Source of the DNA: Escherichia coli
Lineage (GTDB): Bacteria > Pseudomonadota > Gammaproteobacteria > Enterobacterales > Enterobacteriaceae
Strand: one strand, 5' to 3'
NCBI RefSeq assembly: GCF_030013205.1
Contig: NZ_CP122648.1
DNA: 64,000 nucleotides
The notes below the pieces were generated by a model, which saw only the letters and a program-made list of their open reading frames with translations, was not told the origin of the DNA and made no database searches. Every line of letters begins with the position of its first letter. Position 1 is the first letter of the stretch. Both the position numbers and the translations under genes were made by a program. Shown piece after piece: positions 55,798 through 63,430 of this stretch.

Positions 55798-55850
55798 GGG
55801 CAGCAGAGCAGTCACGGAGTAAAACTGATACCGCCAAACGTCACCAGAAA
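55798..55850 (-). ncRNA. dicF: DicF small regulatory RNA
   Basis: Minus strand reads UUUCUGGUGACGUUUGGCGGUAUCAGUUUUACUCCGUGACUGCUCUGCUGCCC followed by UUUUU; matches remembered DicF; sits between ydfC and dicB. Confidence 0.85.
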
Positions 55851-57612: not shown

Positions 57613-57919
57613 ACAGGCTCGTGAGGCTCTGGATGCCTGGATATGTCGACCAGGAATGACACAGGAGCAGGCGACGATATTAATCACTGAAGCATTCTGG
57701 GCTTTGAAAGAGCGCCCGAACATCGATGTTCAGCGTGTCACATATGAAGGTGGCGCGATTGATCAGCGAGCGCTTGGCGTTATCTGGTCATCACCTGACG
57801 GAGAAATACGTCGCTACGACAGTCGCCTAAACATAATCTGTCGCGAGTGCCGGAAGAGCGAAGTTATGCAGCGCATACTGGCTTTCTATCAGGGTAATTT
57901 TCAGGACGTGGCGCAGTGA
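57596..57919 (+). CDS. hypothetical prophage protein (YdfX-like position), Cys-containing
   Basis: 107-aa ORF overlapping the dicC 3' end by 17 nt; CxxC at CRECRK; family not assigned. Confidence 0.5.
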   Translation: MKITPEQAREALDAWICRPGMTQEQATILITEAFWALKERPNIDVQRVTYEGGAIDQRALGVIWSSPDGEIRRYDSRLNIICRECRKSEVMQRILAFYQGNFQDVAQ

Positions 57920-58272
57920 GTGCACCGGCAACCATTCTTGATATGTGCTGTGGCAGCCGCATGTTCTGGTTCGATAAGTCTGACGAACGGGCGATATTCA
58001 GCGATATCAGAAAAGAAGGATACACATTACGCAATGGGAGACGCTTGATTATCAGCCCTGACATTATCGCAGATTTTCGTGCATTATCATTTGCAGACGC
58101 ATCTTTTTCGATGGTTGTATTAGACCCTCCGCATCTTGAGAGTGTTGGTGATAACGCCTGGATGGGAAAGAAATATGGACGGCTGAATAAAGATGCCTGG
58201 CGTGATGATTCGCGACAGAGATTTAAAGAAGCCTTTCGGGGGTTGAGGCCGCACGGCGTTCTGATTTTTTAA
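57916..58272 (+). pseudogene. short SAM-methyltransferase-like ORF, probably truncated
   Basis: 118-codon ORF starting at GTG overlapping the upstream stop; motif-I-like ILDMCCGS and DPPH (DPPY-like); ends at a T6 run. Confidence 0.4.
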
Positions 58273-58631
58273 TGGAATGAAACGCAAATACCGGTAAGCC
58301 AGATTCTGGCACTGACAGACAGAAAACCTGTTATCTGTCAACGAACAGGGAAAAAACGATAAAACCCACTGGATTATTTTTATGAAAGAGGCATCCAGTG
58401 AGTAGATTCGTAAGGCTACAGATACGTATATCTGAATAATTAAATTCAGTTCTGTAAATAAAATTTAATCCTTAACCGGATGGATTTCTGCACCCTCAGA
58501 ACATCAGGAGGCCGCCCGAAAGGGCGGTAGTGAAATGCGAATGTTCAAAATTATTATTGAAACGGGAATAGCTGGTGGAGATTTTGAGGATGTATTCGAA
58601 GTGGACGATGACGCAACACCTGAGGAAATTC

Positions 58632-58886
58632 ATGACGGAGCATAAGAAATTTTCTTTAACTACTGCAATTACTCATACCACGAAATAAAAGACGATGAGG
58701 AAGAACAAAGTGGCTGATTTTTGTTCAGCTAAATATAACATCAGTTTTGAAGAGCGGGATGAACTATTAATGGACTATGGTGAGTTACGCGGTGGAAGTG
58801 CTGCTGATGTCGAATCCTAGCGTGATGACTATGAAGCGGGAAAAACTCCGGTCGAAGCATATTGTGATGAGTGGGGCGATGAATGA
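58632..58886 (+). pseudogene. reading frame interrupted by in-frame TAA and TAG, otherwise open
   Basis: Hand translation MTEHKKFSLTTAITHTTK*KTMRKNKVADFCSAKYNISFEERDELLMDYGELRGGSAADVES*RDDYEAGKTPVEAYCDEWGDE*. Confidence 0.3.
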
Positions 58887-59170
58887 GCGAGATTAATTAT
58901 CAGGAAGGGCATGAAACGGCGGGGCAAGCAAAACCAGTGGCATGGCGATATCGCTACGTGAAAAAAGGCGTTACGGACTTTCAGGGGAAGTAGTGGTCTG
59001 GTGACTGGAAATATGTACCGAAAAAAGAGGATTGTAACGACAGGCCGAACTATCAAATTCAGGCCTTATTCACTGCCTCACCAGTCCCAGTTACATCAGA
59101 AGAACTGGTTAAAGCTGTGCACTTTTATGAACAACTAAAACGCGAAAATCCACCAACATCCGGCAACTAG
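58883..59170 (+). pseudogene. reading frame interrupted by one in-frame TAG, start overlaps previous stop (ATGA)
   Basis: Hand translation MSEINYQEGHETAGQAKPVAWRYRYVKKGVTDFQGK*WSGDWKYVPKKEDCNDRPNYQIQALFTASPVPVTSEELVKAVHFYEQLKRENPPTSGN*. Confidence 0.3.
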
Positions 59171-59424
59171 ATTAATGGATTAACTATGTCGGTTAAACGA
59201 CCAGCCAACTGAAAAAGCGGAAACCTGATTACAGGTTGCCAGATAAGGCAATGAGCTACCTGGCGCGGAACGGACTGATAAGTATGGGGAATGTTTTACG
59301 ATGAACCTTTAGACTAAAGAGTTTGTAACGCTATGTAAGTGATTTTTTCTGGTTTAGATATTTATATGTCCGGCCAAATTGAGGTGTGTTTAAATGTAAT
59401 TGCACATTGATTGTAGGAGGAATA

Positions 59425-59604
59425 ATGAAAAACGCATTGCAGTTTTTGTTTGTTGCGTTCTGGTTGTTCGCATCATGTATGCCCATCATCTTCACAGCAA
59501 GGTATATGGAAAAAGTTGATGTTTTGATATTAATATTTGGATATATAAATGCCCTTTTTTTAGGGGTGTTCATGGCGGTCATGTGCATTGAATACTGGCG
59601 GTAA
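59425..59604 (+). CDS. 59-aa hydrophobic (two predicted TM) small protein
   Basis: MKNALQFLFVAFWLFASCMPIIFTARYMEKVDVLILIFGYINALFLGVFMAVMCIEYWR; GGAGG about 6 nt upstream of the ATG. Confidence 0.45.
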   Translation: MKNALQFLFVAFWLFASCMPIIFTARYMEKVDVLILIFGYINALFLGVFMAVMCIEYWR

Positions 59605-59938
59605 ATACAGCGAACTCCATTGGTTTAGTTGGATATTTACTGTGCTGGACAAAAACGGTTTGCGGGGAAATCTTAGTTAAGTAGAATGACTGCGGGTGCT
59701 TGAGGCTATCTGCCTCGGGCATGGACACCAACGGCAGATAGAGAAAAGCCCCAGTTAACATTACGCGTCCTGCAAGACGCTTAACATTAATCTGAGGCCA
59801 ATTTCATGCTAGACACATGTAGGTTAGCCTCTTACGTGCCGAAAGGCACGGAGAAGCAGGCTATTGTTAACACCAAGTTGTAATGTCCCCTTTGAACCAT
59901 TCTAAAATGTCCCCAGACAATTCTCTGGGGGATTTTTC

Positions 59939-61252
59939 ATGATCAAAGAGACTGTTACGATGAGTCATAAGGAACTCCACCGACTTCAGATTATTCAGGA
60001 ACAAGCTGCGGCACGCATTGGCATTTCTATTCGGCAGGTTAAACGTCTGGTGCAACGGTATAGAAATGAAGGGCCTTCTGGTCTGGTTTCCCACCGACGT
60101 GGAAAGCGTCCTAATAATTCCTTTTCTACTGAATTCAGAGCAACAGTAATTTCACTCCTCAAAGGCCGTTACGCTGATTTTGGACCTACGTTTGCGTGCG
60201 AAAAATTGCGCGAGATACACGGTTTATCTTTATCCGTTGAAACTCTCAGAAAGTGGATGATAGAAGAGGGGTTATGGCGTGAACGCCGTCGTAAAATTGC
60301 CCGTATATATCAACGCCGCATGCGACGACCATCTTACGGTGAACTGATCCAGATTGATGGCTCACCTCATGACTGGTTTGAAAATCGAGGCCCCAGATGT
60401 ACACTGATCGTTTTCATTGATGATGCCACCAGTGCGTTGATGGCGTTGCGTTTTGTGCCTGCTGAAACAACCCGGGCTTACATGGAAACCCTCCGGGGTT
60501 ACCTTAATGATCATGGCGTACCGCTCGCTCTCTACTCTGATAGACACAGTATATTCAGGGTAAATAACCCAGAGCGGGAAGGTGAGCTGACCCAGTTCAC
60601 TCGTGCGATAAAGACACTGGGCATCGAGCCAATCCATGCCAACAGCCCGCAGGCAAAAGGGCGGGTAGAGCGCGCCAATCAGACACTACAGGACAGGCTG
60701 GTCAAAGAAATGCGGCTTCAGAATATCAGTGATATTGAAACAGCAAATGCATGGTTGCCGACCTTTATTGAAGCCTATAACAACCGGTTCGCTACGTCGC
60801 CTCGTACTACTGATAATGCTCATCTTGATGTGCACCATTCTGAAGAGGAACTGGGTTATATCTTCAGCCTACAGGCGAAGCGCGTTCTGTCTAAAAATCT
60901 CACTTTCCAGTACAAAAGCAGTGCGTTTCAGGTACGCAGTGAGGGCCGGGGATATCGACTTAGGCATTCGGTTGTTACTGTATGCGAGAACTTTGACGGT
61001 GAAATTAACGTTCTGTATGACGGGAAAGCGCTGGGCTGGGAAAAGTATGTTGATGGCCCGGAGCCTATACCACTGGATGATGAAAAGAGTGTCCATGAAC
61101 GAGTGGATAATGCCCGTATTGATTTACGCTCAAAATACTATGTTAAACCTAAAGCTGACCATCCCTGGCTTACGCGCCGAACGCAAAGTCATCAGCAAGT
61201 TAAGCCCCCGAAGTTACCTAAAAAGAAGCCTGATCCCGATAAAAAAGATTGA
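59939..61252 (+). CDS. DDE transposase with N-terminal HTH and rve-type integrase core (IS481/ISNCY-like), Lys-rich tail
   Basis: 437-aa ORF; HTH at IGISIRQVKRLVQRY; acidic residues in DGSPHDW / FIDDATS / RVERANQ context; family assigned from memory only. Confidence 0.65.
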   Translation: MIKETVTMSHKELHRLQIIQEQAAARIGISIRQVKRLVQRYRNEGPSGLVSHRRGKRPNNSFSTEFRATVISLLKGRYADFGPTFACEKLREIHGLSLSVETLRKWMIEEGLWRERRRKIARIYQRRMRRPSYGELIQIDGSPHDWFENRGPRCTLIVFIDDATSALMALRFVPAETTRAYMETLRGYLNDHGVPLALYSDRHSIFRVNNPEREGELTQFTRAIKTLGIEPIHANSPQAKGRVERANQTLQDRLVKEMRLQNISDIETANAWLPTFIEAYNNRFATSPRTTDNAHLDVHHSEEELGYIFSLQAKRVLSKNLTFQYKSSAFQVRSEGRGYRLRHSVVTVCENFDGEINVLYDGKALGWEKYVDGPEPIPLDDEKSVHERVDNARIDLRSKYYVKPKADHPWLTRRTQSHQQVKPPKLPKKKPDPDKKD

Positions 61253-61586
61253 AACCAAGATCGATTCGGTTGAGTGCATATCCATTCATAGGGTAGATTC
61301 TTAAGTCGCGTTTCTGGTGTTCATTTTCGGGTGGTTTGTTACTTGTTTTACCGGGGATATGCCAGAAACGCGCTGAGTCAGTCTGGGCGGTGCGCGTAAT
61401 GAGGCGTTATGGTAAATAGCCTATGCTAATGTCCGCTAAGAGCAAGAAGCGGAAGTTGGCAGTTTTGTGGACTGTCCCCACAAAAGTGACTACAGAAATA
61501 GTTGCAATTCATAATTGATCATGGGTTGTCAGTTAAACTCGTGGCGATTTAAATAGACTAATTGGGAGTGCGTCCATTACTTATAT

Positions 61587-61635
61587 CTTGTAATGTTAAC
61601 TATCAGAAATTCTTGTAATGTTAACTATCAGAAAT
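61587..61635. repeat. Two tandem copies of a 24-bp unit CTTGTAATGTTAACTATCAGAAAT separated by 1 nt
   Basis: Read directly: 61587-61610 and 61612-61635 are identical; located 3' of flxA. Confidence 0.9.
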
Positions 61636-61713
61636 GATACAAAGATAATATGTCTTTAAAGAAAAGGCTGATGGCGAAAAGTGGCCCGATGAGGGCCACA
61701 ATACGGCTGTCAC

Positions 61714-62046
61714 TTAGACGTAAATATCAATGGTGCCAGCGGTATTTGTATCGTCTTTTTTCTCTTCTTTTTTATCAGGCTGAACTGTCGCGTCTTCATT
61801 CTTTTTCTCTGCCTGCTGCCTTAACAACTGCTCCAGTTGAGCCCAGAGGCTTTCAATTTGCTTCTGTACCAATGCAGCCATTTCTTTTTTCTGCTGTGTC
61901 GTCATCCCCTCTTCCGATGAGATTTTCCCAAGCTTTTCAGTCAGCACCTGAATTTGTCTTGTGATTTTGGCTATTTCTGATGTTCCTTCCGGGGCGGAGT
62001 TGTTTGAAATAACGGTTGAGGTATTTCCCTGAATTGTGACAGACAT
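61714..62046 (-). CDS. flxA: FlxA (FliA-regulated Qin prophage protein)
   Basis: 110-aa ORF MSVTIQGNTSTVISNN... recognised as FlxA; AGGAG upstream. Confidence 0.88.
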   Translation of the reverse strand: MSVTIQGNTSTVISNNSAPEGTSEIAKITRQIQVLTEKLGKISSEEGMTTQQKKEMAALVQKQIESLWAQLEQLLRQQAEKKNEDATVQPDKKEEKKDDTNTAGTIDIYV

Positions 62047-62069
62047 AGATTTCTCCTTTTAAAAAAGCA

Positions 62070-62096
62070 CTATCGGCATGCACAAAAAAATCTTTA
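62070..62096 (-). promoter_or_regulatory. sigma-28 (FliA) type promoter for flxA
   Basis: Minus strand TAAAGATT-N11-GCCGATAG versus consensus TAAAGTTT-N11-GCCGATAA, about 25-50 nt upstream of the flxA ATG. Confidence 0.75.
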
Positions 62097-62248
62097 ATCG
62101 TATTTCTTGTGTCATTAATTGTTTGATGTTCAGATTGTTTTCCTCGCGGGCTGGCGCGCCTCAGAAAGTAAAGCTTGTTGACAGGGGTAAACGTTCGGCA
62201 ATAATTTTCTGCCGCATGCGGGTGTTGCATAAAACGTGTTACGTTCCT

Positions 62249-62554
62249 TTATCGACAGGTCAGGTCACCGCTCACCCGCCGACGAGAAAGCAACACTGAC
62301 ATGCTAAAGCAAAAAATAGATGAATAAGTTGAGTTGTGCATATGTAGCCTGACCGTCACAAAGTATATGGTGTCTGTACCAGTAAGATGATGGCCGGACT
62401 CTTTAAAAACGAGCTGACCTGCACAATACAGGATGGACTTAGCAATGGCTGCTCCTGGCACAAAGCGGACAGTGATCACCGTTCTTACGACTACTTTCTG
62501 ACTTCCTTCGTGACTTGCCCTAAGCATGTTGTAGTGCGATACTTGTAATGACAT
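62249..62554 (-). CDS. ydfV: Qin prophage protein YdfV
   Basis: 101-aa ORF between flxA and relB; identity by position and length, low compositional confidence. Confidence 0.5.
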   Translation of the reverse strand: MSLQVSHYNMLRASHEGSQKVVVRTVITVRFVPGAAIAKSILYCAGQLVFKESGHHLTGTDTIYFVTVRLHMHNSTYSSIFCFSMSVLLSRRRVSGDLTCR

Positions 62555-62566
62555 TTGTAATTACAA
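62543..62566. promoter_or_regulatory. relBE operator (relO) dyad
   Basis: TTGTAATGACATTTGTAATTACAA, containing the 12-bp palindrome TTGTAATTACAA, 13 nt upstream of the relB ATG. Confidence 0.7.
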
Positions 62567-62578
62567 GAGGTGTAAGAC

Positions 62579-62818
62579 ATGGGTAGCATTAACCTGCGTA
62601 TTGACGATGAACTTAAAGCGCGTTCTTACGCCGCGCTTGAAAAAATGGGTGTAACTCCTTCTGAAGCGCTTCGTCTCATGCTCGAGTATATCGCTGACAA
62701 TGAACGCTTGCCGTTCAAACAGACACTCCTGAGTGATGAAGATGCTGAACTTGTGGAGATAGTGAAAGAACGGCTTCGTAATCCTAAGCCAGTACGTGTG
62801 ACGCTGGATGAACTCTGA
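62579..62818 (+). CDS. relB: antitoxin RelB
   Basis: 79-aa ORF recognised as RelB. Confidence 0.95.
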   Translation: MGSINLRIDDELKARSYAALEKMGVTPSEALRLMLEYIADNERLPFKQTLLSDEDAELVEIVKERLRNPKPVRVTLDEL

Positions 62819-63105
62819 TGGCGTATTTTCTGGATTTTGACGAGCGGGCACTAAAGGAATGGCGAAAGCTGGGCTCGACGGTACGTGAACAGTTGAAAAA
62901 GAAGCTGGTTGAAGTACTTGAGTCACCCCGGATTGAAGCAAACAAGCTCCGTGGTATGCCTGATTGTTACAAGATTAAGCTCCGGTCTTCAGGCTATCGC
63001 CTTGTATACCAGGTTATAGACGAGAAAGTTGTCGTTTTCGTGATTTCTGTTGGGAAAAGAGAACGCTCGGAAGTATATAGCGAGGCGGTCAAACGCATTC
63101 TCTGA
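62818..63105 (+). CDS. relE: mRNA interferase toxin RelE
   Basis: 95-aa ORF overlapping the relB stop by 1 nt (TGATG); recognised as RelE. Confidence 0.95.
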   Translation: MAYFLDFDERALKEWRKLGSTVREQLKKKLVEVLESPRIEANKLRGMPDCYKIKLRSSGYRLVYQVIDEKVVVFVISVGKRERSEVYSEAVKRIL

Positions 63106-63176
63106 ACCAAAGCATGACATCTCTGTTTCGCACCGAAGGTGACACTTCTGCTTTGCGTTGACAGGAGAAGCAGGCT

Positions 63177-63332
63177 ATGAAGCAGCAAAAGGCGATGTTA
63201 ATCGCCCTGATCGTCATCTGTTTAACCGTCATAGTGACGGCACTGGTAACGAGGAAAGACCTCTGCGAGGTACGAATCCGAACCGGCCAGACGGAGGTCG
63301 CTGTCTTCACAGCTTACGAACCTGAGGAGTAA
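63177..63332 (+). CDS. hokD: Hok-family membrane toxin HokD (RelF)
   Basis: Hand-translated 51-aa ORF MKQQKAMLIALIVICLTVIVTALVTRKDLCEVRIRTGQTEVAVFTAYEPEE with AGGAG upstream; below ORF-track cutoff. Confidence 0.85.
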   Translation: MKQQKAMLIALIVICLTVIVTALVTRKDLCEVRIRTGQTEVAVFTAYEPEE

Positions 63333-63401
63333 GAGACCCGGCGGGGGAGAAATCCCTCGCCACCTCTGATGTGGCAGGCATCCTCAACGCACCCGCACTT
63401 A

Positions 63402-63430
63402 ACCCGCTTCGGCGGGTTTTTGTTTTTATT
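63402..63430 (+). terminator. Rho-independent terminator after hokD
   Basis: ACCCGC-TTCG-GCGGGT followed by TTTTTGTTTTTATTTT. Confidence 0.7.

What the first reader, a model, noticed from the sequence alone, without database searches (positions are those of the whole stretch)
59939..61252. DDE transposase gene without recognisable terminal inverted repeats
The 437-aa product has an N-terminal HTH, an rve-type catalytic core and a Lys/Pro-rich tail, so it is an IS transposase (my guess is IS481 or ISNCY family). I could not find matching inverted repeats in the flanks by eye; both flanks instead carry TGTCCCC-containing segments in direct orientation (59883-59912 and 61478-61492). The element boundaries are unresolved.
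Basis: partly seen in the sequence, partly recalled or inferred. Interest (0 to 1): 0.4.

Follow-up and report, generated by a model that had tools for sequence, protein, structure and literature searches.

The report
relBE-carrying transposon inserted into hokD
The gene is the transposase of a 3.3-kb IS1202-family transposon whose second inverted repeat lies 1.9 kb past the gene, beyond the relBE toxin-antitoxin genes. The element landed in the start codon of the prophage's hok toxin gene, which explains both the "missing" repeats and the origin of the E. coli relBE-hokD operon.

Summary
The 437-aa ORF (59939-61252) is real. It is an ISNCY/IS1202-family DDE transposase, which PGAP names "ISEsa1 family". 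The inverted repeats were not found because the mobile unit is much larger than the gene.

Related prophages have an intact sok-hokD locus. Comparison with them shows a 3,299-bp insertion, 59865-63163, flanked by a perfect 15-bp duplication GGAGAAGCAGGCTAT.
- The left end is TGTTAACACC... and the right end is ...GCGTTGACA. They match at 21/30 positions and carry subterminal ATGTC motifs about 24 nt apart (right-end copies at positions 19 and 44, left-end at 19 and 43).
- These features fit the IS1202 family, ISTde1-type subgroup: TGT...ACA ends and a 15-17-bp duplication.
- The element carries tnp, a cer-like XerCD site, a variable cargo slot (here flxA) and relBE next to the right end.

The same backbone carries 10.5 kb of nickel and chromate resistance genes on Enterobacterales plasmids. 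There it is again inserted at a hok start codon, with a different 15-bp duplication. At least seven different hok loci are hit at the same position, and a GGCAA motif precedes the duplication.

The window's tnp has a 27-bp deletion in its N-terminal DNA-binding region. K-12 has lost the left end. This is a known family in a new, cargo-carrying, site-selective variant.

The parts
59694..59864 (+). Left flank, which is the target: a complete sok / hok-mRNA leader that ends at the AT of the hok start codon. It is now orphaned from its toxin ORF.
   Evidence: Rfam RF01794 scores 104 bits over model positions 1-157 of 157. It is 96-98% identical to the intact sok-hokD loci L042 and L043.
59850..59864 (.). 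Left copy of the 15-bp target-site duplication, GGAGAAGCAGGCTAT
   Evidence: Identical to 63164-63178. It occurs once in the uninterrupted loci L042 and L043.
59865..59890 (+). Left terminal inverted repeat (IRL), TGTTAACACCAAGTTGTAATGTCCCC, with a second subterminal repeat at 59903-59914
   Evidence: Every independent copy diverges from its flank exactly here. It matches the right end at 21/30 positions.
59939..61252 (+). Transposase gene tnp, 437 aa. Catalytic residues are D140, D161/D162, D201 and E244, with Q251 at E+7. This allele lacks 9 aa (QESINRHIT) after residue 19, through a 27-bp deletion between TCAGGA repeats at about 59996.
   Evidence: It is otherwise identical to the 446-aa plasmid protein WP_004196353.1.
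61103..61252 (+). The annotated 'ydfW' (called intK in K-12). It is the last 49 codons of tnp, in the same frame.
   Evidence: The KPxxDHPW motif is conserved in distant transposases.
61269..61417 (+). cer-like Xer recombination site inside the element. The core at 61389-61417 reads GGTGCGCGTAA-TGAGGCG-TTATGGTAAAT, and accessory-like sequence lies upstream of it.
   Evidence: It is 75-84% identical to unannotated regions of many small ColE1-type plasmids, and that homology stops at the XerD arm. The arms match the dif-like sites listed in PMC10132070.
61418..61457 (+). Conserved 40-bp tail of the left module. It forms the left arm of a palindrome that borders the cargo slot.
   Evidence: Several different right-hand sequences (window, L004, L012, L014) start immediately after 61457; in L013 the break falls about 4 bp earlier. 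It is the inverted repeat of the edge of the right module.
61458..62450 (.). Variable cargo slot. Here it holds flxA (61714-62046, minus strand) and a 25-bp tandem duplication at 61586-61635.
   Evidence: Other copies hold different DNA here: ncrYCBA-chrBA (10.5 kb), a putative metal-efflux-like membrane protein (my reading of the sequence, not scanned), a LysR-type regulator with a 430-aa ORF (also not scanned), and others. FlxA matches Pfam PF14282.
62451..63137 (+). Conserved right module: relB promoter/operator, relB (62579-62818) and relE (62818-63105)
   Evidence: It is 92-99.6% identical in L012, L014, L024, L033 and L044, whatever the cargo. Pfam gives RelB and ParE_toxin.
63138..63163 (-). 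Right terminal inverted repeat (IRR), GGTGACACTTCTGCTTTGCGTTGACA, ending in ACA. A second subterminal motif lies at about 63113-63124.
   Evidence: Homology to the empty sites resumes at 63163/63164. This is the best match to IRL anywhere in the 64-kb window. The same sequence ends the element in L012, L044, L033 and L024.
63164..63178 (.). Right copy of the 15-bp target-site duplication. It supplies the Shine-Dalgarno sequence and the AT of the hokD start codon.
63177..63332 (+). hokD toxin ORF. This is the right flank, now lying downstream of relBE instead of its own sok-controlled leader.
   Evidence: Pfam HOK_GEF scores 82.9 bits. The protein is identical to the HokD of the intact locus L042.

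Best explanation
The ORF is the transposase of a 3,299-bp cargo transposon of the IS1202 family. It is ISEsa1-like and has the 15-17-bp duplication typical of the ISTde1 subgroup. The element occupies 59865-63163.

Anatomy, left to right:
- IRL, starting TGT.
- tnp.
- An internal cer-like XerCD site.
- A palindrome-bordered slot holding variable cargo, here flxA.
- relBE.
- IRR, ending ACA.

Inferred mechanism: the DDE transposase binds the terminal and subterminal ATGTC(C/A)CC motifs, which sit at positions 19 and 43-44 of each end. It cleaves at the TGT and ACA tips and joins them to target cuts staggered by 15 (sometimes 16) bp.

What is shown:
- The element inserted into the Shine-Dalgarno-to-ATG segment of the prophage's hokD gene.
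- The insertion duplicated GGAGAAGCAGGCTAT.
- The sok/hok leader was left orphaned on the left side.
- The hokD ORF now lies behind relBE. That arrangement is the relB-relE-hokD(relF) operon known from K-12.

What is inferred:
- Target choice follows a GGCAA motif immediately 5' of the duplicated segment. The motif is often the 3' arm of a small hairpin, which the hok leader provides.
- The window copy is probably crippled, because a 9-aa deletion falls in the conserved N-terminal DNA-binding region.
For: Empty site:
- L042 and L043 carry an uninterrupted sok-hokD locus.
- The window matches them up to 59864 and again from 63163/63164. The 15 bp are single-copy there and duplicated here.

Ends:
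- IRL matches the reverse complement of IRR at 21/30 positions (binomial P = 3e-7).
- That is the best IRL match among 127,940 positions in the window. A chance 20/30 match also exists.
- IRR fits the family consensus seen in compact relatives L025, L028, L031 and L040.

Other copies with both ends:
- L044: a 12,843-bp element with ncr/chr cargo in a plasmid hok gene, with TSD GGAGAAGTCAGCTAT.
- L101: 4,600 bp with a 16-bp TSD. L033: 2,575 bp at a non-hok site with a 15-bp TSD carrying 2 mismatches.
- L046: the same 3,301-bp unit at another site.
- L111 and L132: tandem copies separated by exactly 15 bp.

Family features:
- L029, a compact 1.4-kb relative, has TGT..ACA ends and a 15-bp TSD.
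- The transposase signature is present: DGS, DDAT, YxD and E...Q at E+7. This matches the family description in 10.1101/2022.12.17.520857.
- NCBIfam ISNCY_2 scores 456 bits.

Target preference:
- Full-length Rfam sok hits end exactly at IRL in the window, L005, L009, L026, L079, L094 and L101.
- An rdlD antitoxin lies next to IRL in L019.
- [GT]GCAA lies 15 or 16 nt from IRL in 16 of 33 dereplicated flanks, including 4 non-hok families. The chance probability is 4e-7.
Against: - No transposition assay exists, so activity, transposase binding sites and stagger are all inferred.
- The TIR match of 21/30 is only one better than the best chance match in the window. Its weight comes from coinciding with the breakpoint defined independently.
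- L046 shows only a 6-bp flanking repeat. L025 shows none.
- The two Citrobacter copies (L019, L020) share only 1,433 bp. No IRR was found within the sequence held for them.
- The hok preference could partly reflect what survives selection rather than what the enzyme chooses.
- About half of the flanks lack GGCAA.
Confidence: 0.85

Rival explanations
1. A stand-alone insertion sequence of about 1.6 kb, as ISEsa1 is listed in ISfinder: 1,609 bp, weak 15/22 TIRs and no target duplication. Under this reading it would end near 61446-61457, and relBE and flxA would be unrelated neighbours.
For: - PMC10132070 Table 7 lists ISEsa1 with these properties.
- Homology between the window and the plasmid copies stops at 61457.
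Against: - No inverted repeat exists at 61457 or 61269.
- The break at 61457 is a cargo junction. The conserved relBE-IRR module follows every cargo.
- Comparison with the empty site puts the right edge at 63163, with a 15-bp TSD.
- In IncHI2 copies an IS110-family ISEsa2 sits at 61447, 1,610 bp from IRL. The ISfinder right end may therefore be that junction. This last point is inference.
Confidence: 0.05
2. A decayed, right-truncated IS remnant beside a separately acquired relBE segment. The 15-bp repeat would then be a by-product of recombination between hok loci.
For: - Earlier literature says only that relBE 'integrated' into hokD from plasmids (PMC6379469).
- Recombinant copies with mismatched flanks do exist: L079 and L104.
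Against: - The same tnp...relBE-IRR architecture recurs at different hok loci with different, perfectly duplicated 15/16-bp sequences.
- It also recurs at non-hok sites (L033, L046).
- IRR carries the family's end consensus.
Confidence: 0.04
3. A Xer-mobilised module (a dif/xrs cassette or IMEX) that uses the internal cer-like site. The transposase would be incidental.
For: - A good XerC/XerD core lies at 61389-61417.
- Some IS1202-family members are associated with xrs sites.
Against: - The element's boundaries do not coincide with any Xer site, and only one Xer site is present.
- The boundaries are TGT/ACA inverted repeats with a 15-bp duplication, which is a transposition signature.
- The xrs-targeting subgroup makes 5-6-bp duplications with IRL abutting the XerC arm. 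That is not the geometry seen here.
Confidence: 0.03
4. A domesticated rve-family protein or a prophage integrase remnant. The K-12 fragment was once named intK, 'integrase fragment'.
For: - K-12 keeps only the C-terminal 49 codons.
- There is a weak match to a retroviral integrase core, 3kkr, at E = 0.01.
Against: - The gene sits 74 bp inside a transposon end.
- It moves together with that end into many replicons.
- It carries the IS1202-family catalytic signature.
- It is not at a prophage end.
Confidence: 0.02

Closest known systems
IS1202 family, ISTde1 subgroup (Siguier et al. 2022 preprint 10.1101/2022.12.17.520857; Harmer & Hall 2023, PMC10132070)
   Same: - A single large HTH-DDE transposase with DD between D1 and D2 and Q at E+7.
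- TIRs that start TGT, with a second conserved block near position 20.
- A 15-17-bp target duplication.
- Relatives in Elusimicrobia, Gemmatimonadetes and Acidobacteria, as reported for that subgroup.
   Different: - Described members are 1.3-2.0-kb IS, with a few carrying one unknown passenger ORF. This element carries 1.9-11 kb.
- The extra DNA includes a Xer site, a cargo slot and relBE.
- No target preference was reported for this subgroup.
ISEsa1 (ISfinder; ISNCY / IS1202 group)
   Same: - PGAP names the 446-aa protein 'IS1202-like element ISEsa1 family transposase'.
- A start at Met8 gives 439 aa, the length ISfinder lists.
- The left end and the gene correspond.
   Different: - ISfinder lists 1,609 bp, TIR 15/22 and no TSD.
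- Here the unit is 3.3-12.8 kb, with a 21/30 TIR and a 15-bp TSD.
- I could not obtain the ISfinder reference sequence, so identity to it is untested.
ISAba32 / ISAjo2 subgroup (dif/pdif-targeting IS1202 members)
   Same: - Same family.
- Oriented insertion at a fixed distance from a short recognised sequence.
- Association with XerCD sites.
   Different: - Those elements insert with IRL 5-6 bp from the XerC arm and make 5-6-bp duplications.
- Here the Xer site is internal, about 1.5 kb from IRL. The target is GGCAA-N15 in hok leaders.
Tn7-like transposons (TnsB)
   Same: - TGT...ACA tips.
- Repeated transposase-binding motifs near both ends.
- Cargo carried between a transposase module and a distant right end.
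- Site-selective insertion.
   Different: - There are no TnsA, TnsC or TnsD/E or other target-selector genes.
- A single transposase is present.
- The duplication is 15 bp rather than 5 bp.
IS inactivation of chromosomal hok loci in E. coli (Pedersen & Gerdes 1999, cited from memory and via PMC7232551)
   Same: A mobile element disrupts a hok/sok locus.
   Different: - Those cases involve other insertion elements; I recall them from Pedersen & Gerdes 1999, not from a paper read here, as IS150 and IS186 inserted near the loci.
- Here a cargo transposon hits the start codon itself, repeatedly and in many hok homologues, and rewires the toxin ORF to relBE.

Membership tests
IS1202 family | Transposase with an N-terminal HTH and a DDE core that has two extra conserved Asp between D1 and D2 and a Gln seven residues after the Glu | tested here: met
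   D140; D161 and D162 (FIDDAT); D201; E244; Q251. All are conserved in an 8-sequence alignment that includes relatives of 31-51% identity.
IS1202 family | Imperfect terminal inverted repeats of about 24-26 bp that begin 5'-TGT, with a second conserved block near position 20 | tested here: met
   The ends match at 18/26 and 21/30 positions. TGT tips are present, and (A/G)TGTC occupies positions 19-23 of both ends.
IS1202 family, ISTde1 subgroup | Target-site duplication of 15-17 bp | tested here: met
   A perfect 15 bp in the window. It is 15 or 16 bp in L044, L093, L101, L033 and the compact relative L029. Exception: L046 has only 6 bp.
IS1202 family, ISTde1 subgroup | [quoted passage not shown] | not tested
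   No reference ISTde1 sequence was available. Harmer & Hall place ISEsa1 in a separate small clade with ISCARN112.
ISNCY (NCBIfam transpos_ISNCY_2) | Whole-protein score above the curated cut-off | tested here: met
   456.4 bits against a cut-off of 250.
   125.7 bits against a cut-off of 224.
ISEsa1 (same IS by ISfinder criteria) | High nucleotide and amino-acid identity to the ISfinder reference, with the same ends | not testable with these tools
Only PGAP's naming and the length coincidences (1,610 bp to the ISEsa2 junction; 439 aa from Met8) are available.
xrs-targeting ISAba32 subgroup | IRL 5-6 bp from the XerC arm of a dif-like site, with a 5-6-bp duplication | tested here: not met
   The only Xer site (61389-61417) is internal. 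The duplication is 15 bp.
[quoted passage not shown] | A sok / hok-leader RNA structure followed by a Hok/Gef ORF | tested here: met
   RF01794 scores 104 bits at 59694-59865. HOK_GEF scores 82.9 bits at 63177-63329. The two are contiguous in L042 and L043.

The most novel reading that the evidence does not exclude
This is a family of IS1202-type cargo transposons that homes to the translation start of type I toxin genes. The targets are hok in at least seven distinct loci, and ldr in one.
- Homing works by reading a GGCAA motif or small hairpin placed 15-16 bp from the joining point.
- Each insertion disconnects the toxin ORF from its antisense-RNA control and puts it behind the transposon's own outward-facing relBE operon. 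One addiction system is thereby replaced by another.
- An internal slot next to a XerCD site exchanges cargo: flxA, nickel and chromate resistance, CDF efflux, a LysR unit.
- The textbook E. coli K-12 relBE-hokD(relF) locus, together with flxA and ydfW, would be a left-truncated relic of this element.
- The ISfinder entry ISEsa1 would be only its left module.
Probability: 0.5. Interest if true: 0.7.

Novelty: new variant of a known kind. Interest (0 to 1): 0.55.

Why it matters
- It turns an apparently end-less transposase into a fully delimited element. It also suggests why ISEsa1 was reported to have no target duplication: its right end may have been set at a cargo or ISEsa2 junction.
- It gives a concrete vehicle and breakpoint for a much-studied locus. 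E. coli relBE, flxA, ydfV, ydfW/intK and the odd relBE-hokD operon would all be transposon content or consequence.
- The same backbone moves nickel and chromate resistance among Klebsiella, Enterobacter and Phytobacter plasmids. About 850 PLSDB records hold one of its modules at 95% identity or more.
- The repeated hits on hok start codons, and the GGCAA-N15 motif, offer a testable new target-selection rule for a transposase family. In that family only dif targeting was known before.

Tried and rejected
- Right end at 61457 or about 61269. I aligned IRL against both candidate right edges and the following 200 bp and found no inverted repeat. 61457 proved to be a cargo junction. About 61269 is where two Citrobacter copies diverge and where the cer-like homology begins.
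- The 12-bp perfect inverted repeat 59753-59764 / 61590-61601. The left arm lies inside the sok structure and the right arm is a polymorphic 25-bp tandem repeat, so I treat it as chance.
- TGTCCCC at 61473 as an end. It lies in cargo, and the word is not enriched in the window.
- A second Xer site that would make the cargo a dif-type module. None was found.
- A cargo-less ancestral junction (61457 joined to 62451). It is not present in PLSDB.
- A hok 3' fold-back element downstream of the element. None was found. The hok ORF turned out to lie at 63177.
- L011, a 72%-identical gene. It is a 5'-truncated fusion and gives no information about the ends.
- The ISEsa1 reference copy in Cronobacter plasmid pESA3. 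Nothing appeared in the first 50 kb and I stopped.
- The PDB sequence search gave only a marginal retroviral integrase core hit.
- A literature search found no description of this transposon or of hok targeting. The Ramisetty & Santhosh 2016 paper could not be read.

Full report
**Context.** The window is a Qin-like lambdoid prophage of E. coli, with dicA/dicC, DicF, flxA, relBE, hokD and rem. It is 99.9-100% identical to ATCC 8739 and many other strains.

**The observation.** ORF 59939-61252 (437 aa) is present as described.
- Pfam finds the N-terminal HTH domains above threshold and rve_3 just below it.
- NCBIfam transpos_ISNCY_2 scores 456 bits against a cut-off of 250. IS481 scores 126 against 224.
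- PGAP splits the ORF into an "ISNCY family transposase" pseudogene and "ydfW". YdfW is simply the last 49 codons in the same frame.
- That tail contains a KPxxDHPW motif conserved in transposases of 35-50% identity, so it is genuine.
- TGTCCCC occurs at 59884, 59908 and 61473. The window holds 5 copies against 5.3 expected.

**First attempt at the ends.**
- Plasmid copies from Klebsiella, Enterobacter, Phytobacter and Serratia encode a 446-aa protein. It is identical to the window protein except for nine extra residues.
- Three different left contexts diverge from the element exactly at 59865, TGTTAACACC....
- On the right, homology to the window stops at 61457. No inverted repeat is there.
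- The last 190 bp of that shared segment match small ColE1-type plasmids. They contain a XerC/XerD core, GGTGCGCGTAA-TGAGGCG-TTATGGTAAAT, at 61389-61417.
- Two Citrobacter copies share only 1,433 bp, ending 17 nt after the stop codon.
- So neither 61269 nor 61457 behaves as a transposon end.

**The left flank gave the answer.**
- Region 59694-59865 is a complete Rfam sok / hok-leader (104 bits, model positions 1-157 of 157). It stops at the AT of the hok start codon.
- Many E. coli prophages carry this leader joined to an intact hokD.
- In two of them, L042 and L043, the window aligns up to 59864 and again from 63163/63164. The 15 bp GGAGAAGCAGGCTAT are present once there and twice in the window.
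- The insertion is therefore 59865-63163, 3,299 bp.
- Its right terminus, ...GGTGACACTTCTGCTTTGCGTTGACA, ends in ACA. Its reverse complement matches IRL at 21 of 30 positions.
- (A/G)TGTC motifs sit at positions 19 and 43-44 of both ends.
- This is the best match to IRL anywhere in the window, although a chance 20/30 match also exists.

**Generality.**
- The identical IRR ends the element in a Salmonella plasmid, L012.
- In Phytobacter plasmid pMRY16-398_1 the element is 12,843 bp. It reads IRL-tnp-Xer site-ncrYCBA-...-chrBA-...-relBE-IRR. It is inserted in the plasmid's own hok gene downstream of psiAB, with the perfect duplication GGAGAAGTCAGCTAT.
- Scans of viral and metagenome contigs with the IRL sequence gave further complete copies:
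  - 4,600 bp with a 16-bp duplication.
  - 2,575 bp at a non-hok site, with a 15-bp duplication carrying two mismatches.
  - The 3,301-bp flxA version at a different site, with only a 6-bp repeat.
  - Copies with mismatched flanks, which are recombinants.
- Tandem copies separated by exactly 15 bp also occur.
- A compact 1.4-kb relative in a Uhrbacteria genome has TGT..ACA ends and a 15-bp duplication.
- One sequenced phage, PhiR42_1, carries the whole element.

**Family assignment.**
- The transposase has DGS, DDAT, YxD and E with Q at +7.
- The ends start TGT and have a conserved block near position 20.
- The duplication is 15-16 bp.
- These are the published features of the IS1202 family and of its ISTde1 subgroup.
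- ISEsa1 is listed there as 1,609 bp, TIR 15/22 and no TSD.
- In IncHI2 copies an IS110-family ISEsa2 is inserted at 61447, 1,610 bp from IRL. The 446-aa protein started at Met8 is 439 aa, as listed for ISEsa1.
- I infer, without having the reference sequence, that the catalogued ISEsa1 is only the left module of this transposon.

**Internal organisation.**
- Two modules are conserved: 59865-61457 and 62451-63163.
- The DNA between them differs in at least seven loci.
- The two module edges are inverted repeats of each other, at about 22 of 28 positions. The cargo therefore sits at the centre of a palindrome, 40 bp from the Xer site.
- One viral contig, L081, has the same hokD insertion and the same deleted tnp allele but different cargo. 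Cargo can therefore be exchanged in place.
- How the cargo enters the slot is unknown.

**Target choice.**
- Full-length sok hits end exactly at IRL in seven distinct hok loci (80-133 bits).
- In a Citrobacter copy the flank is an rdlD/ldr locus, with IRL directly after an ATG.
- IRR always joins just 5' of the GGAG of the Shine-Dalgarno sequence. IRL joins after AT or ATG.
- Among 33 dereplicated left flanks, [GT]GCAA lies immediately 5' of the duplicated segment in 16. These include four unrelated non-hok families. The chance probability is about 4e-7.
- In hok leaders this pentamer is the 3' arm of the conserved hairpin upstream of the SD.
- I therefore propose GGCAA-N15/16 as the target rule. 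Selection bias is not excluded.

**State of this copy.**
- The window's tnp lacks 27 bp, lost between TCAGGA repeats. This removes QESINRHIT from a segment that is ungapped in all relatives. The copy is probably inactive.
- E. coli strains carry both alleles at the same site.
- K-12 MG1655 has deleted window positions 57783-61067. That removes the sok leader, IRL and most of tnp. It keeps ydfW, the Xer site, flxA, relBE, IRR and the duplication next to hokD.

**Literature.** Papers in the library state that relBE integrated into hokD by horizontal transfer and that relBE-hokD are co-transcribed. I found none that describes a transposon, its ends, or hok targeting.

**Verdict.** The "missing" repeats exist 1.9 kb further right. 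The element belongs to a known family but is a cargo-carrying, apparently site-selective variant of it.

Noticed in passing
window 61418-61457 and 62451-62476: The edges of the two conserved transposon modules are inverted repeats of each other, about 22/28, consensus TGTCCGCTwwGwGCsAGGAGCrGACGTT. At least seven different cargos sit exactly between them. This looks like a palindromic cargo hot spot 40 bp from a XerCD site. The mechanism is unknown.
   Followed up: partly
window 61269-61417: A cer-like Xer site lies inside the transposon (core 61389-61417). It is homologous to unannotated regions of hundreds of small ColE1-type plasmids. In L014 the sequence to the left of the core is different, as expected after Xer-type exchange.
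   Followed up: partly
window 62249-62554 (-), 'ydfV': The annotated YdfV ORF starts in the conserved relB-promoter module and runs across the cargo junction. Its first 33 residues are constant and the rest changes with each cargo. It has no Pfam match. It is probably not a real conserved gene.
   Followed up: partly
window 61586-61635: A perfect 25-bp tandem duplication, TCTTGTAATGTTAACTATCAGAAAT, is polymorphic among strains (element lengths 3274 against 3299). It contains CTTGTAATG, which is also found in the relB operator region (62543-62551). TTGTAATG occurs in IRL (59877-59884). A possible RelB link to the transposon end was not tested.
   Followed up: no
window 61411-61436: A sequence resembling IRL by my hand alignment (about 17/26, including TAATGTCC) lies in direct orientation. 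It overlaps the XerD arm, and its tip reads GGT instead of TGT. More generally, the IRL tip TGTTAA resembles the XerD half-site TTATGTTAAAT.
   Followed up: no
window 57783-61067 compared with K-12 (L086): K-12 MG1655 has a 3.3-kb deletion here. It removes prophage genes, the sok leader, IRL and 1,130 nt of tnp. This is why the element cannot be recognised in K-12.
   Followed up: yes
window 59694-59864: An orphan sok gene and hok promoter/leader now face into the transposon's left end, 74 bp upstream of tnp. Whether tnp is transcribed from the hok promoter and modulated by Sok is open.
   Followed up: no
L024 2972-2998 (Leclercia adecarboxylata chromosome): An IRR abuts codon 105 of another copy's tnp. 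One element has inserted into, or recombined with, another.
   Followed up: no
L111, L132 (metagenome contigs): IRR, a 15-bp spacer and IRL occur in direct succession. These are tandem elements sharing one target duplication, which implies that the same site was reused.
   Followed up: partly
L008-L010 (IncHI2 and other plasmids), equivalent to window 61447: An IS110-family ISEsa2 is inserted in the left arm of the cargo palindrome, 1,610 bp from IRL. This is the same length as the ISfinder entry for ISEsa1 (1,609 bp).
   Followed up: partly
window 63341-63422: A weak sub-threshold Rfam match to isrK (25 bits, E = 0.017) lies just downstream of hokD. It is probably the structured hok mRNA 3' region or a terminator.
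   Followed up: no
window 55798-55849 (-): The DicF small RNA is detected (71 bits), which confirms the Qin-type prophage context.
   Followed up: yes
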